Below are positions 1 through 10,022 of a stretch of 10,449 bases of DNA, in pieces. Under the pieces are notes generated by a model. That model saw only the letters and a program-made list of their open reading frames with translations, was not told where the DNA came from and did no database searches. Position 1 is the first letter of the stretch. Every line of letters begins with the position of its first letter. The position numbers were made by a program, and so were the translations under genes. Origin of the DNA: a virus; UHGV virus genome UHGV-1344453. The stretch is one strand, 5' to 3'.

Positions 1-1310
1 GCGAACTGGCAATTAATGCGGACTCTGACACCGTTCACCACTACAACGGCGTTGTATGGGAGCCGGTACAGGATAAAGAGTTACAGCGGGCTATGGCGCA
101 GATTTTTATTGATGCGGAGATCAGTTATTCGCAGAACGCCATCAAATCGGCGGTCGATACCATGAAGTTAAGTTTGCCCGTAATGGGGAATACCGCCCGT
201 AACCTGATTGGATTCAGTAACGGTGTTTTTGATACCCGGACAGGCGATTTTCGGGAGCATGACAAAAACGACTGGCTGTTAATTGCCAGTGAATTACCGT
301 TCAGCCCGCCAGCAGAGGGGGAAACGCTGGCAACGCATGCGCCGAATTTCTGGAAATGGTTGCGCCGTTCGGTGGCAGAGAATGACCGTAAAGCGGATCG
401 CGTACTGGCGGCGTTATTCATGGTGCTGGCGAACCGATACGACTGGCAGTTATTTCTTGAGGTAACGGGGCCGGGTGGAAGCGGTAAAAGCGTAATGGCG
501 GAGATTTGCACCATGCTGGCGGGTAAGGCCAACACGGTATCGGCAAGCATGAAGGCGCTGGAAGATGCCAGGGAACGCGCGTTAGTGGTTGGCTTTTCGC
601 TGATTATCATGCCGGATATGACCCGCTACGCTGGTGATGGCGCAGGAATTAAGGCCATTACAGGCGGTGACAAGGTGGCAATCGACCCGAAGCATAAAGC
701 CCCCTACTCAACACGTATTCAGGCGGTCGTGCTGGCGGTGAACAATAACGCCATGTCATTCAGTGACCGCAGCGGGGGGATCTCACGTCGTCGGGTGATA
801 TTCAATTTTTCGGAGGTTGTACCGGAGAACGAACGCGACCCCATGCTGGCAGAAAAAATAGAAGGAGAGCTGGCGGTTGTGATTCGCCACCTGCTTACTC
901 GTTTTTCTGACCAGGACGAAGCTAAACGCCTGCTGTATGAACAGCAGAAATCAGAAGAGGCCTTGGTGATAAAACGCGAGGGCGATTCGCTGGTGGACTT
1001 CTGCGGCTATCTCATGTCGTCGGTAATGTGTGATGGTCTGTTAGTGGGTAATGCCGAAATTATTCCGTTCAGTCCGCGCAGGTATCTTTATCACGCCTAT
1101 CTGGCTTATATGAGGGCACACGGATTCGGTAAACCTGTAACACTGACGCGCTTCGGTAAAGATATGCCGGGGGCAATGGCGGAATATGGCAGGGAGTATA
1201 TGAAACGGAAAACGAAGCACGGTTTGCGTTCAAATGTGACCCTGACAGAGGATTCAGAAGACTGGATGCCATCATGTGCATCGGTCACAAATGACGATGG
1301 AAAAAATTAA
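1..1310 (+). CDS. P4 alpha-like primase/helicase, C-terminal portion (5'-partial; reading frame is open from base 3 of the window)
   Basis: Frame is open upstream of the first ATG at 93 back to the window edge. Walker A GPGGSGKS is encoded at ~469-492. Overall resemblance to the phage/plasmid primase P4-family C-terminal helicase region. Stop TAA at 1308-1310 is followed immediately by the iteron cluster. Confidence 0.8.
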   Translation, partial: ELAINADSDTVHHYNGVVWEPVQDKELQRAMAQIFIDAEISYSQNAIKSAVDTMKLSLPVMGNTARNLIGFSNGVFDTRTGDFREHDKNDWLLIASELPFSPPAEGETLATHAPNFWKWLRRSVAENDRKADRVLAALFMVLANRYDWQLFLEVTGPGGSGKSVMAEICTMLAGKANTVSASMKALEDARERALVVGFSLIIMPDMTRYAGDGAGIKAITGGDKVAIDPKHKAPYSTRIQAVVLAVNNNAMSFSDRSGGISRRRVIFNFSEVVPENERDPMLAEKIEGELAVVIRHLLTRFSDQDEAKRLLYEQQKSEEALVIKREGDSLVDFCGYLMSSVMCDGLLVGNAEIIPFSPRRYLYHAYLAYMRAHGFGKPVTLTRFGKDMPGAMAEYGREYMKRKTKHGLRSNVTLTEDSEDWMPSCASVTNDDGKN

Positions 1311-1322
1311 ACTTATGGAATA

Positions 1323-1501
1323 ACTGTTCACCACTGTTCACCCTGTCATAAATGTCTTTTATATCAGTATATTATAGGGTGAACAGTTATTTATGAACTG
1401 TTCACCAAACTATTCACTGTTCACCTTTTTGATTGTTTATTGAGCTTTAAGGGTGAACAGTGGTGAACAGTTGGTGAATAGTTTTTGTGAAACTGTTCAC
1501 C
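1323..1501. repeat. Iteron cluster: 8 perfect copies of TGTTCACC / GGTGAACA plus ~3 degenerate copies in an AT-rich context (ori/crr-like)
   Basis: Forward TGTTCACC at 1325, 1335, 1399, 1418, 1494. Reverse GGTGAACA at 1378, 1452, 1462. Degenerate copies at ~1342, ~1412, ~1473. TGTTCACC is the type I iteron bound by P4 alpha protein at ori and crr. Confidence 0.75.
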
Positions 1502-1518
1502 CCTTAACATCATGAATA

Positions 1519-1562
1519 NNNNNNNNNNNNNNNNNNNNNNNNNNNNNNNNNNNNNNNNNNNN
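1519..1562. other. Run of 44 N (assembly gap or masked sequence)
   Basis: Directly visible in the sequence. Confidence 0.95.
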
Positions 1563-1598
1563 GCAAAAATTTTATTTTATTGCTGTGAGGTAAAGCCT

Positions 1599-1844
1599 GT
1601 GACAACGAAGCACGCAAAAAAACCACATAACCGCGCCATTGACCTTACAGAGCACTGGCTGAGGGTGGCGATAAAAATCATCGACCGCAACGCGGGAGAA
1701 GGATACGCGAAAGCACATCCTGAACTAATAAGCGCATTCATGACCACAGCGGCGGCAAACTTTGCCACGCTGACAGAACGGGAGATTGCCGAAGCGGAAC
1801 AGGTAACAACCATCAACGTTAAAACCGGAGAGGTGGAATCATGA
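1599..1844 (+). CDS. Hypothetical small protein (~81 aa); start uncertain because the frame is open back into the N-run
   Basis: GTG at 1599 preceded by GAGG at 1587-1590. Stop TGA at 1842-1844 overlaps the ATG of the next gene (ATGA), suggesting translational coupling. No recognisable motif. Confidence 0.45.
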   Translation: MTTKHAKKPHNRAIDLTEHWLRVAIKIIDRNAGEGYAKAHPELISAFMTTAAANFATLTEREIAEAEQVTTINVKTGEVES

Positions 1845-2251
1845 CAGCACAGATAGCCGCTTACGGGCGGCTGGTGGCTGACCCGCAGTTAAAGACCACC
1901 AGCAAGGGCACACAAATGGCTATGGCAAGCATGGCGGTCCCCCTGCCGTGCAATCAGGCAGATGACGGACAGGCGACGATGTGGTTATCCGTCCTGGCGT
2001 TTGGCAGACAGGCCGACGCACTGGCAAAACACCACAAAGGCGAGCTGGTGAGCGTGGCGGGTAACATGCAGGTAAGCCAGTGGACAGGCCAGAACGGCGA
2101 AACGCGGCAGGGCTGGCAGGTTATTGCAGACAGCGTAATCAGTGCCAGAACGGCGCGACCTGGTGGGAGCCGACGCAAGACCACAGGCACACAGGGTAAT
2201 CAGCCACCAGCGGGAGGCGATGACCCTTACGGTGATGATATTCCGTTCTGA
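1841..2251 (+). CDS. ssb: Single-stranded DNA-binding protein (SSB), 136 aa
   Basis: RBS GGAGAGGTGG at 1828-1837. The N-terminal region aligns by eye to the OB fold of E. coli SSB. Gly/Pro/Gln-rich linker and the canonical acidic tail ending DDIPF. Confidence 0.85.
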   Translation: MTAQIAAYGRLVADPQLKTTSKGTQMAMASMAVPLPCNQADDGQATMWLSVLAFGRQADALAKHHKGELVSVAGNMQVSQWTGQNGETRQGWQVIADSVISARTARPGGSRRKTTGTQGNQPPAGGDDPYGDDIPF

Positions 2252-2261
2252 GAGGGTGACG

Positions 2262-2519
2262 ATGGTACATGACCGCATAGCGGAAGAACTCGAGGCGAAA
2301 GGCTTTTACCGGAGAGCGTCGGCGCGATGGGGTGAAGTCATGCTACTGGTGGAGACAGACAAGGAACGGGAGCACATCACGATGCGACGGCTGGAATGTT
2401 GCAGAAAATCGACAAGGCCAGCACTCGGGCCGGACAATTTCAGCGATATTAAAAAAGCCGCTGATCGTGTTTATGCTGAAATGGGATTAGATAAATTAAA
2501 GGGGGAAACATGCCAGTAA
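2262..2519 (+). CDS. Small regulator-like protein, probably PerC/Pch family (85 aa)
   Basis: ATG at 2262 with GAGGGTGA just upstream. The track ORF 2142..2519 overlaps the ssb 3' end, so the downstream start is preferred. Segment AEELEAKGFYRRASARWGEVM...MRRLECC matches my recollection of the conserved PerC-family core. Confidence 0.5.
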   Translation: MVHDRIAEELEAKGFYRRASARWGEVMLLVETDKEREHITMRRLECCRKSTRPALGPDNFSDIKKAADRVYAEMGLDKLKGETCQ

Positions 2520-9409: not shown

Positions 9410-9487
9410 CGGAATGGATGAGAGAGGACAATGCTCATTTAATGGAATAAATTTTCAGTATTACCGGCACCCACTTTCAGGGATGTT

Positions 9488-9643
9488 TTTGCGGGTTTTT
9501 TGAGGGGTGTTTGCGGGTTATTTTGAATGTCTTGCGGGTTACACTCTGGCTGATATTTAAATACGTTGTTTTTTAACGTATTGATATTAAAGAGTAAAAA
9601 ATGCTTAGCACGCGAAGATAACCCGCTAACCCGCATAACCCGC
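9488..9643. repeat. Organised repeat array: 3 direct TTGCGGGTT copies, a central AT-rich palindrome, then 3 inverted copies (AACCCGC)
   Basis: Direct copies start at 9488, 9510 and 9531 (~21 bp phasing). Palindrome AATACGTT-N7-AACGTATT at 9560-9582. Inverted copies at 9618-9626, 9627-9634 and 9635-9643. No convincing ORF. Confidence 0.6.
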
Positions 9644-9652
9644 GCTGTTTTG

Positions 9653-9666
9653 TATATATATATATA
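9653..9666. repeat. (TA)7 dinucleotide microsatellite
   Basis: TATATATATATATA visible in sequence. Confidence 0.8.
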
Positions 9667-9799
9667 CGAAAAATTGCATTCAGGATGGGGATCGAAATTC
9701 CTGCAACCCATTACTTATGGAACTGTCCGCCCCGTCAAATTTTTACACCCGCGAAAAATACTTCATGCTGGTGGGCATGATGCCGATATGGGGATCTCC

Positions 9800-9860
9800 A
9801 TAACGGGTTATCCGTAATCATCCACCAGCTTGATAACGGATAGCCGAAAAATGATAACGG
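9800..9860. repeat. Cluster of ATAACGG-containing repeats (TGATAACGG x2 direct, one further ATAACGG, one inverted TTATCCGT/ACGGATA pair)
   Basis: ATAACGG at 9800-9806, 9833-9839 and 9854-9860. Inverted pair at 9808-9815 and 9836-9842. Lies 160-220 bp from the inferred junction with the chromosome. Confidence 0.5.
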
Positions 9861-9899
9861 TTAAGCAAAACTGCCAGCAAATTTCCCTTTTGTTTGTTA

Positions 9900-9956
9900 T
9901 TGTTCGTCGTTGTTCGTAGAGCTTCAACAAAATGTGTGGTCAGTTGTGTGGTCAGT
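9900..9956. repeat. Two tandem duplications near the element end: TTGTTCGT x2 (10-bp period) and TGTGTGGTCAGT x2 (perfect 12-bp tandem)
   Basis: TTGTTCGT at 9900-9907 and 9910-9917. TGTGTGGTCAGT at 9933-9944 and 9945-9956. Confidence 0.6.
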
Positions 9957-10022
9957 TTTGAGGTTTTTAATTCTTGTATGCTGAAAAACTTATTAATTAT
10001 CAACTGATAACAAAAATTAGTA

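What the first reader, a model, noticed from the sequence alone, without database searches (positions are those of the whole stretch)
1..10022. Tail-less, capsid-encoding satellite with a P4-type replication module
The window holds a P4 alpha-like primase/helicase with TGTTCACC iterons and a full head and packaging set (capsid, protease, portal, two head-completion proteins, HNH, TerS, TerL). No tail, tape-measure, baseplate or lysis genes appear before the element ends ~600 bp after terL. This is the architecture of capsid-forming phage-inducible chromosomal islands, which build their own capsids and borrow helper-phage tails. Pairing a P4-like alpha/iteron replicon with an HK97-like head module would make this a mosaic worth placing among known satellites.
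Basis: partly seen in the sequence, partly recalled or inferred. Interest (0 to 1): 0.75.

Follow-up and report, generated by a model that had tools for sequence, protein, structure and literature searches.

The report
Known capsid-forming phage satellite (cf-PICI)

Summary

The element belongs to the cf-PICI family described by Alqurainy et al. in 2022/23. Against the tested prototype EcCIEDL933 it has the same gene order, with TerS 100%, portal 96.5%, TerL 94.9% and protease 94.8% identical. A 98%-identical copy in E. coli SB0258h1 is a 15-kb island (int, AlpA, Rep to TerL) without tail or lysis genes. About 10% of complete E. coli genomes carry this packaging module.

The P4 link is real but partial:
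- The helicase and origin-binding part is 52% identical to P4 alpha, and the TGTTCACC repeats are P4's own origin repeats.
- The P4 primase domains are absent from the full-length relative, and no other P4 gene is present.
- The same replicon-plus-head pairing occurs in Klebsiella, Pluralibacter and Citrobacter cf-PICIs, so it is not an unusual mosaic.

Caveats:
- The integrase, AlpA and attL lie outside the window.
- The capsid frame breaks across a masked N run, probably an artefact.

Side findings: the island splits the thiM TPP riboswitch, and it carries a second, foreign origin-like repeat cluster after terL.

The parts
1..1310 (+). 3' part (435 codons) of the replication initiator/helicase gene: D5_N, SF3 helicase (DUF5906) and a C-terminal P4-alpha-type origin-binding domain. 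The gene starts left of the window.
   Evidence: Pfam. phrog_864 DNA primase, E 4e-160. PDB 1KA8 (P4 origin-binding domain), E 1.4e-24. 51.9% identity to P4 alpha residues 347-776. The 605-aa full-length relative has no Toprim or Zn ribbon.
1324..1562 (.). Replication origin: at least 8 TGTTCACC iterons in both orientations in an A+T-rich stretch directly 3' of the rep gene. The right part is masked by 44 N, where relatives carry one more iteron.
   Evidence: GC falls to 0.37. The octamer equals the 'ori type 1 repeat' annotated in the P4 record. P4 ori 9309-9367 aligns at 81%. The ori lies 3' of rep, as described for PICIs.
1599..1844 (+). Conserved small gene of unknown function (GTG start).
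   Evidence: phrog_1231, E 8.5e-49. Annotated in relatives.
1841..2251 (+). Single-strand DNA-binding protein.
   Evidence: Pfam SSB, E 1.3e-16. The exact protein is on record in 1477 blocks of the collection, and all 8 places shown have cf-PICI layout.
2262..2519 (+). PerC-family transcription regulator (PchE-like).
   Evidence: Pfam PerC, E 2.5e-36. 74% identical to the EcCIEDL933 homologue, which is named pchE in Sakai Sp7.
2510..2770 (+). Conserved small gene of unknown function.
   Evidence: phrog_1957, E 1e-24.
2771..3053 (+). Conserved control region of the head operon: TTTTGTAAATTATTTGT, then two GGTTGTTC repeats (2831-2849), a 15-bp hairpin (2927-2964), and a terminator-like hairpin with a T8 run that ends at the capsid start codon.
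   Evidence: Conserved across cf-PICIs with different integrases. Fold z-score -4.1. The function is inferred only.
3054..4224 (+). HK97-fold major capsid protein gene, read as two ORFs in different frames across 13 masked bases (3760-3772).
   Evidence: Pfam Phage_capsid covers both halves. Both halves are 100% identical to the intact 389-aa protein of SB0258h1. The relative has 12 nt where the window has 13 N.
4260..4835 (+). Prohead serine protease (S78).
   Evidence: Pfam, E 1.2e-47. 94.8% identical to EcCIEDL933.
4837..6051 (+). Portal protein.
   Evidence: Pfam, E 8e-92. 96.5% identical to EcCIEDL933.
6048..6386 (+). Head closure protein (Phage_HCP, Hc1). One of the two proteins that meet the borrowed tail.
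   Evidence: Only 51% identical to EcCIEDL933, the most divergent structural protein.
6383..6679 (+). gp6-like head-tail connector (PHROG Ad1).
   Evidence: 74% identical to EcCIEDL933.
6679..7119 (+). HNH endonuclease that partners the terminase.
   Evidence: Pfam HNH, E 1.9e-9. 83.6% identical to EcCIEDL933. The Sakai homologue is labelled 'holin protein' in its record.
7103..7288 (+). Small conserved ORF between hnh and terS.
   Evidence: phrog_3173, E 1.8e-29. Annotated in relatives.
7289..7407 (.). Conserved G-run / C-run intergenic stretch upstream of terS. Candidate cos site (inferred).
   Evidence: Conserved with EcCIEDL933, SMS-3-5 and CEA106S. cf-PICI DNA has cohesive ends. The location is not shown experimentally.
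7408..7764 (+). Small terminase, P27 family.
   Evidence: Pfam Terminase_4, E 1.3e-23. 100% identical to EcCIEDL933 TerS.
7748..9409 (+). Large terminase (ATPase and nuclease domains), TTG start.
   Evidence: Pfam. 94.9% identical to EcCIEDL933.
9487..9666 (.). Second, foreign origin-like module: 3 GCGGGTT(A/T) repeats, a hairpin, 3 TAACCCGC repeats, then a (TA)n run.
   Evidence: About 80% identical over 157 nt to the iteron field directly 3' of the DUF927 Rep gene of EcCIEDL933-type islands.
9790..10022 (.). attR arm (P' arm) specific to islands at this site, with direct repeats TTGTTCGTCGTTGTTCGT and 2x TGTGTGGTCAGT.
   Evidence: Shared with SMS-3-5 and CEA106S but not with SB0258h1, which sits at another site. 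The same ~75-nt block recurs near attL in the relatives. Their integrases carry an arm-DNA-binding domain.
10023..10036 (.). att core AGAAATACCCGTAT (attR copy). This is the right boundary of the island, inside the thiM TPP riboswitch aptamer.
   Evidence: Alignment of the empty K-12 site, the window attR and two attL junctions. Island-free genomes match from base 10023.

Best explanation
This is the right-hand ~10 kb of an integrated capsid-forming phage-inducible chromosomal island (cf-PICI) of the EcCIEDL933 family, about 15 kb in full. It is inserted in the 5' leader of thiM.

Expected life cycle, taken from the experimentally studied family members:
1. A helper phage switches on the island's AlpA regulator, which lies outside the window. 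The island then excises through its arm-binding tyrosine integrase.
2. The Rep helicase binds the TGTTCACC iterons just downstream of its own gene and, together with the island's SSB, replicates the island.
3. The head operon makes portal, protease and capsid protein, which assemble small procapsids.
4. HNH, TerS and TerL cut the island's own cos site and package one unit-length genome.
5. The head closure and connector proteins seal the head and provide the docking surface for tails made by a phage.

Shown here: gene identities, gene order, close homology to the tested prototype, the island boundary, and the iteron origin. Inferred: induction, small capsid size, the cos location, and which tails fit.
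For: - All head and packaging genes are present and identified.
- The order matches the published Proteobacterial cf-PICI order.
- Protein identity to EcCIEDL933: TerS 100%, portal 96.5%, TerL 94.9%, protease 94.8%, HNH 83.6%, SSB 82%, capsid 61-73%, connector 74%, head closure 51%.
- EcCIEDL933 was shown by mutation to make its own small capsids and to need only helper tails.
- Relatives that are 98% identical (SB0258h1) or sit at the same site (SMS-3-5, CEA106S) are roughly 15-kb islands with an integrase and AlpA, bounded by host genes, with no tail or lysis gene.
- The 8 further islands shown that carry the identical SSB have the same layout.
- The packaging module covers at least 80% of the query in 534 of 5426 complete E. 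coli genomes.
- True phages have capsids at most 39% identical. The 59-71% 'phage' hits are mostly short records: 15-17 kb, i.e. island-sized, or a 3.8-kb fragment.
- The iterons sit 3' of rep, as in PICI origins.
Against: - The integrase, AlpA and attL are not in the window, and the source contig was not recovered.
- The capsid frame breaks across a 13-N run, so an inactivating frameshift cannot be excluded.
- No induction or particle data exist for this particular element.
Confidence: 0.9

Rival explanations
1. It is a decayed cf-PICI. The architecture is that of a cf-PICI, but the capsid gene carries a +1 frameshift, so the island can no longer build heads.
For: The capsid ORF is split into 3009-3788 and 3745-4224 in different frames. 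The window has 13 masked bases where the 98% relative has 12.
Against: The other masked run (1519-1562), which lies in non-coding DNA, is also exactly one base longer than in the relative. That points to a masking artefact. Both capsid halves are 100% identical in protein to the intact relative, and every other gene is intact.
Confidence: 0.07
2. It is the remnant of an HK97-like prophage that lost its tail and lysis genes by deletion.
For: The head and packaging proteins belong to HK97-type Pfam families. Sakai's copy is annotated 'prophage Sp7; untypable'.
Against: The same 15-kb layout with a PICI-type int-AlpA-Rep left arm recurs at four or more att sites and in several genera. The island ends cleanly at an att core soon after terL. 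The nearest real phage capsids are at most 39% identical. The prototype is a proven mobile satellite.
Confidence: 0.02
3. It is a P4-like satellite that hijacks P2-type helper capsids.
For: The helicase and origin-binding domain is 52% identical to P4 alpha. The iteron is identical to P4's type 1 origin repeat, and there is nucleotide similarity to P4 ori.
Against: P4 Sid, Delta, Psu, Epsilon, Int, Vis and cII give no tblastn hit in the window. The island encodes its own capsid and terminase. The P4 primase domains are absent from the full-length relative.
Confidence: 0.01

Closest known systems
EcCIEDL933, the prototype cf-PICI of E. coli O157:H7 EDL933 (= Sakai Sp7); Alqurainy et al., bioRxiv 10.1101/2022.09.08.507074
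   Same: Same gene order from the small gene after rep through SSB, PerC, capsid, protease, portal, head closure, connector, HNH, small ORF, TerS and TerL. TerS is identical; portal, TerL and protease are 95-97% identical. The control region upstream of the capsid gene and the stretch upstream of terS are conserved.
   Different: - Replication protein: DUF927 type with GCGGGTTA iterons there; D5_N/P4-alpha-like helicase with TGTTCACC iterons here.
- att site: roxA/phoQ there, the thiM leader here.
- Head closure protein only 51% and capsid 61-73% identical.
- The 93-aa ORF after terL is replaced here by a non-coding iteron module.
cf-PICI of E. coli SB0258h1 (NZ_CP071954.1, gcd/hpt site), and those of SMS-3-5 and CEA106S (rcnR/thiM site)
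   Same: SB0258h1 is 98.1% identical in nucleotides over window 3-9416, with proteins 98-100% identical apart from one small ORF of unknown function at 89%. SMS-3-5 and CEA106S have the same att site and arm sequences and a 97-98% identical Rep. CEA106S also has the same module after terL.
   Different: The window combines an SB0258h1-like body with a CEA106S-like right end. The switch is at the terL stop codon.
cf-PICI of Klebsiella pneumoniae ATCC 13883 (locus L010). It is probably KpCIDSM30104 of He et al., bioRxiv 10.1101/2025.02.11.637232; the strain synonymy is from my own knowledge.
   Same: Rep is 87% identical, with 8 TGTTCACC iterons right after it, followed by a full cf-PICI head and packaging module.
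   Different: Head proteins are 42-84% identical. Different genus and att site.
Satellite phage P4 (NC_001609)
   Same: Alpha residues 347-776 (D5_N, SF3 helicase, origin-binding domain) are 52% identical. The origin octamer TGTTCACC is the same. An iteron field lies directly downstream of the gene, as P4's crr does.
   Different: No Zn-ribbon/Toprim primase part in the full-length relative. No sid, delta, psu or epsilon. The island has its own capsid and terminase. Only one TGTTCACC cluster is seen in full-length relatives, whereas P4 has ori plus crr.

Membership tests
cf-PICI (SatelliteFinder model: 11 core components, tail and holin forbidden; PMC10085698) | Own capsid, prohead protease and portal genes | tested here: met
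   Pfam Phage_capsid, Peptidase_S78 and Phage_portal. The capsid frame is uncertain across an N run.
cf-PICI | [quoted passage not shown] | tested here: met
   Phage_HCP / PHROG Hc1 at 6048-6386 and Phage_connect_1 / PHROG Ad1 at 6383-6679.
cf-PICI | HNH, TerS and TerL genes, in the order hnh-terS-terL after the morphogenesis genes | tested here: met
   The order is as described for Proteobacterial cf-PICIs.
cf-PICI | Primase/replicase gene followed by an iteron origin | tested here: met
   The D5_N/DUF5906/Pox_D5 protein ends at 1310, and 8 TGTTCACC repeats lie at 1325-1501. No primase domain as such was detected.
cf-PICI | Integrase and AlpA-type regulator at the left end | not testable with these tools
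   They lie outside the window, and the source contig was not found. Both are present in every full-length relative examined.
cf-PICI | No tail or holin/lysis genes within the element | tested here: met
   None in the window. None in full-length relatives. The unseen left ~5.5 kb of this copy is inferred from those relatives.
cf-PICI | Size about 14-15 kb, bounded by att repeats at a site not used by prophages | tested here: inconclusive
   The attR core and right boundary were found. Total size comes only from relatives, about 15 kb. Prophage use of this site was not examined.
cf-PICI | Helper-dependent induction, small self-made capsids, transfer with borrowed tails | not testable with these tools
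   Shown for EcCIEDL933 and KpCIDSM30104, not for this element.
P4-like satellites (SatelliteFinder: psu, delta, sid, alpA, epsilon/ash, integrase, alpha) | Capsid-hijacking genes sid, delta and psu, and the derepressor epsilon | tested here: not met
   tblastn of the P4 proteins against the window gives no hit at E <= 0.01. None was found in the 80 related loci either.
P4-like satellites | Alpha protein with primase, helicase and origin-binding activities, with type 1 iterons | tested here: inconclusive
   The helicase and origin-binding domain are 52% identical and the iterons are identical. The Zn ribbon and Toprim primase domains are absent from the full-length relative.
Classical Gram-negative PICI (Fillol-Salom 2018, PMC6092414) | Absence of phage structural genes; capsids are made from helper proteins | tested here: not met
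   A full head and packaging gene set is present.
Complete temperate prophage | Tail and lysis modules next to the head module | tested here: not met
   The island ends at an att core 614 bp after terL. There are no tail or lysis genes in the window or in relatives.

The most novel reading that the evidence does not exclude
The GCGGGTTA repeat module after terL (9487-9666) may be a working second cis-site. It would be recognised by the DUF927-type Rep of other PICIs and cf-PICIs, not by the island's own P4-alpha-like Rep. If so, a co-resident satellite of the EcCIEDL933 type could replicate this island in trans. Alternatively the module could titrate that Rep and act as an incompatibility or interference determinant between satellites. 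It would play a role like P4's separate ori and crr, but across elements.
Probability: 0.12. Interest if true: 0.5.

Novelty: already known. Interest (0 to 1): 0.2.

Why it matters
cf-PICIs matter because they move about 15 kb of DNA between strains, and even between genera, using only phage tails. This copy adds no new principle: the family, its prototype and its mechanism are published, and near-identical copies sit in many public genomes.

Three details could be useful to specialists:
1. One common cf-PICI replicon shares its helicase, origin-binding domain and exact iteron with satellite P4. That predicts possible cross-talk between P4-like satellites and these islands.
2. This island carries an extra origin-like module of a different Rep specificity.
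3. Islands at this site split the thiM TPP riboswitch, which may uncouple thiM-thiD from thiamine control and may place the thiM promoter upstream of int.

Tried and rejected
Searches that led nowhere:
- Source contig. A genome-contig scan with the Rep fragment found only relatives at or below 88% identity. An exact look-up of the SSB protein returned many cf-PICIs at other att sites but not this one. The left end could therefore only be inferred from relatives.
- Literature. A search for TGTTCACC returned only primer sequences. The P4 GenBank annotation was used instead.
- Supplementary tables of the cf-PICI paper, which list att sites and elements, are not held.
- A search for thiM together with PICI found nothing relevant.

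Readings rejected:
- Prophage remnant and P4-like satellite: see the rival explanations.
- The ORFs at 9439-9711 (-), 9566-9817 (+) and 9818-10087 (-) are not real genes. They match no family, and they overlap the iteron module, the att arm or the riboswitch.
- The GTTGTTC repeats upstream of the capsid gene are not integrase arm sites. They are conserved in cf-PICIs with other integrases, whose att regions lack them.
- The Rfam MIR821 hit over the origin is a low-complexity artefact: 36 bits against a 249-bit threshold.

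
Full report
**What is in the window**

All long genes are on the + strand. Pfam and PHROGs identify them as follows.

| Coordinates | Identity |
|---|---|
| 3-1310 | last 435 codons of a D5_N / DUF5906 (SF3 helicase) / Pox_D5 replication protein; the gene starts left of the window |
| 1599-1844 | conserved small ORF |
| 1841-2251 | SSB |
| 2262-2519 | PerC-family regulator |
| 2510-2770 | conserved small ORF |
| 3054-4224 | HK97-family major capsid protein |
| 4260-4835 | S78 prohead protease |
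| 4837-6051 | portal |
| 6048-6386 | head closure protein |
| 6383-6679 | gp6-like connector |
| 6679-7119 | HNH endonuclease |
| 7103-7288 | conserved small ORF |
| 7408-7764 | P27-family TerS |
| 7748-9409 | TerL |

- TGTTCACC occurs eight times between 1325 and 1501, in both orientations, in an A+T-rich stretch. The expectation for the whole window is 0.38.
- Nothing after terL matches any protein family.
- The window has no tRNA gene.

**Where the element ends**

E. coli genomes without the island start to match at window base 10023. I aligned the empty K-12 site, the window's right junction and the left junctions of two relatives at the same site. This shows a 14-bp att core, AGAAATACCCGTAT, at 10023-10036. 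thiM starts at 10119.

**What it is**

The closest relative, in E. coli SB0258h1, is 98.1% identical over 3-9416, and its proteins are 98-100% identical apart from one small ORF of unknown function at 89%.
- That copy is a 15-kb island between gcd and hpt.
- Its gene order is integrase, DUF6387 protein, AlpA-family regulator, a few small genes, DUF4222 protein, Rep, then the same genes as the window up to TerL.
- It has no tail or lysis gene.

Islands in SMS-3-5 and CEA106S sit at the same rcnR/thiM site as the window and have the same layout.

I located the published prototype cf-PICI, EcCIEDL933, in the EDL933 chromosome between roxA and phoQ and compared proteins with it.

| Protein | Identity to EcCIEDL933 |
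|---|---|
| TerS | 100% |
| portal | 96.5% |
| TerL | 94.9% |
| protease | 94.8% |
| HNH | 83.6% |
| SSB | 82% |
| connector | 74% |
| PerC | 74% |
| capsid | 61-73% |
| head closure | 51% |

- The gene order is the same.
- Alqurainy et al. describe Proteobacterial cf-PICIs as having capsid, protease, portal and head connectors first, then hnh, terS, terL, with 50-90% similarity to EcCIEDL933. The window fits this description.
- They showed by mutation that EcCIEDL933 makes its own small capsids, packages only itself, and needs only helper tails.
- SatelliteFinder defines cfPICI by 11 core components, forbids tail and holin genes, and reports a median size of 14 kb. Nine of the eleven components are in the window. 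Integrase and AlpA lie beyond its left edge.

The family is common.
- The packaging half of the window is covered at 80% or more in 534 of 5426 complete E. coli genomes.
- The exact SSB protein is on record in 1477 blocks of the assembly collection, and all eight places displayed are cf-PICIs.
- Real phages have capsids at most 39% identical. The 59-71% 'phage' hits are mostly short records, 15-17 kb or a 3.8-kb fragment, and the 15-17-kb ones are probably cf-PICIs deposited as phages.

**The P4 claim**

The claim is partly right.
- The in-window Rep fragment is 51.9% identical to P4 alpha residues 347-776.
- Its last 100 residues match the solved P4 origin-binding domain, PDB 1KA8, at E 1.4e-24.
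- TGTTCACC is the 'ori type 1 repeat' annotated in the P4 record.
- P4 ori aligns to the window's iteron field at 81% over 59 nt.

It also has limits.
- The full-length relative is 605 aa and lacks P4 alpha's Zn ribbon and Toprim primase domains.
- Its first 140 residues instead resemble the N-terminus of the DUF927 Rep of EcCIEDL933, at 68% identity.
- No other P4 protein has a homologue in the window.

The pairing of this replicon with the cf-PICI head module is not rare. It occurs, with the TGTTCACC field in the same place, in K. pneumoniae ATCC 13883, Pluralibacter gergoviae and a Citrobacter freundii MAG. With more diverged Reps it occurs in Enterobacter, Serratia, Yersinia and Erwinia. 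The Klebsiella element is probably KpCIDSM30104, which He et al. studied experimentally; the strain synonymy is from my own knowledge. De Sousa et al. already report that primase-replicase genes are exchanged between PICIs and cf-PICIs. Fillol-Salom et al. describe four Pri-Rep variants in E. coli PICIs and place the origin 3' of rep. The 'mosaic' is therefore the normal modular make-up of the family.

**How it most likely works**

Steps 1 and 3-5 are inferred from the tested relatives. Step 2 rests on the anatomy seen here.
1. A helper phage activates AlpA, and the island excises through its integrase.
2. Rep binds the iterons next to its gene and replicates the island with the island's SSB.
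3. The head operon is expressed. Portal, protease and capsid protein build small procapsids.
4. HNH, TerS and TerL cut the island's cos site and package one unit-length genome. The cos site is probably the conserved G-run / C-run stretch at 7289-7407. TerS is identical to that of EcCIEDL933.
5. The head closure and connector proteins complete the head, which then joins a phage tail.

He et al. showed that these two proteins set tail compatibility and diverge between otherwise similar cf-PICIs. Here they are among the most diverged structural proteins (head closure 51%, connector 74% identical to EcCIEDL933), so this island probably uses different tails from EcCIEDL933.

**Caveats**

- The window carries two masked N runs. 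The capsid reading frame changes across the 13 N at 3760-3772, where the relative has 12 nt.
- The 44-N run in non-coding DNA is also one base longer than in the relative. A masking artefact is the simplest reading, but a real frameshift cannot be ruled out.
- The left ~5.5 kb of this copy was not seen.

**Side findings**

1. The att core lies inside the thiM TPP riboswitch aptamer. The intact K-12 aptamer scores 71.2 bits. The thiM-proximal half in the window scores 36.5 bits and the half left at attL scores 19.5 bits, against a gathering threshold of 54.3.
2. The segment 9487-9666 carries three GCGGGTT(A/T) repeats, a hairpin, three inverted copies and a (TA)n run.
   - It is homologous to the iteron field immediately after the DUF927 Rep gene of EcCIEDL933-type islands.
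   - A DUF927 island at yqeG has such iterons both after rep and at its right end.
   - In this island the module is foreign to the resident Rep.
3. The window joins an SB0258h1-like body to a CEA106S-like right end exactly at the terL stop codon.
4. The region upstream of the capsid gene is conserved across cf-PICIs. It ends in a terminator-like hairpin with a T8 run abutting the start codon.

**Verdict**

The element is a member of an already described and experimentally characterised family, with near-identical copies in public genomes. Interest is low. The side findings are modest leads.

Noticed in passing
window 10023-10118 (attR core and what remains of the riboswitch); attL in L003 2864-2910 and L002: The island is integrated inside the thiM TPP riboswitch aptamer, at the core AGAAATACCCGTAT. 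The thiM promoter and the 5' half of the aptamer (P1 5' strand, P2, P3) stay at attL and point into the integrase gene. thiM keeps only the 3' half. Rfam TPP scores are 71.2 bits for the intact K-12 site, 36.5 bits at attR and 19.5 bits at attL, against a threshold of 54.3. The effect on thiM-thiD regulation and on int transcription is unknown. I found no paper that mentions it.
   Followed up: partly
window 9487-9666: This is a second iteron cluster (GCGGGTTA, three direct and three inverted copies around a hairpin, then a TA run) of a different specificity from the island's own TGTTCACC origin. It is about 80% identical to the origin region just after the DUF927 Rep gene of EcCIEDL933-type islands. 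It replaces the 93-aa ORF that follows terL in most relatives. At least 80% of window 9425-9790, which contains the module, is covered in 135 of 5426 E. coli genomes, and in the loci examined it lies at island right ends.
   Followed up: partly
window 1519-1562 and 3760-3772: There are two runs of N. Each is exactly one base longer than the matching stretch in the 98%-identical relative. The second run makes the capsid gene read as two ORFs in different frames. In relatives, the stretch matching the first run holds one more TGTTCACC iteron.
   Followed up: yes
window 2771-3053: The leader of the head operon is conserved in cf-PICIs with unrelated integrases. It holds the motif TTTTGTAAATTATTTGT, two GGTTGTTC repeats, a 15-bp hairpin, and a GTCCTGG...CCAGGAC hairpin followed by T8 that ends at the capsid ATG. 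This looks like a terminator placed before the first head gene, which would suggest control by antitermination or by a structure around the start codon.
   Followed up: partly
window 9409-9420 (terL stop) and 9790-10022: There is a recombination joint. Left of the terL stop the island matches the SB0258h1 copy (gcd/hpt site) at 98%. Right of it, it matches CEA106S (thiM site) at about 95%. The ~230-bp attR arm carries repeats (TTGTTCGTCGTTGTTCGT and 2x TGTGTGGTCAGT) that recur near attL in relatives, as expected for arm-binding integrases.
   Followed up: partly
L001 8491-10308 (full-length Rep of the closest relative) versus L005 24039-26171: The Rep protein is itself chimeric. Its first ~140 residues match no Pfam family and are 68% identical to the N-terminus of the otherwise unrelated DUF927 Rep of EcCIEDL933. 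The rest is P4-alpha-like. Neither protein shows a recognisable primase domain.
   Followed up: partly
window 2262-2519: A PerC-family regulator sits in the island, 74% identical to the EcCIEDL933 homologue, which is named pchE in the Sakai copy (Sp7). From my own knowledge, PerC/Pch proteins activate the LEE virulence island in EPEC and EHEC. Whether this one regulates island or host genes is unknown.
   Followed up: no
L004 14227-14667 (Sakai ECs_1595), homologue of window 6679-7119: The Sakai record labels the HNH endonuclease gene of this island family 'holin protein'. Pfam identifies the window's copy as HNH. The label could wrongly suggest that the island has a lysis gene.
   Followed up: yes
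phage-collection hits H151 (LR881103.1, 16.5 kb) and H154 (OR544139.1, 15.3 kb): Two of the four 'phage' records with capsids 59-71% identical to this one are only 15-17 kb long. They are probably cf-PICIs deposited as phages.
   Followed up: no
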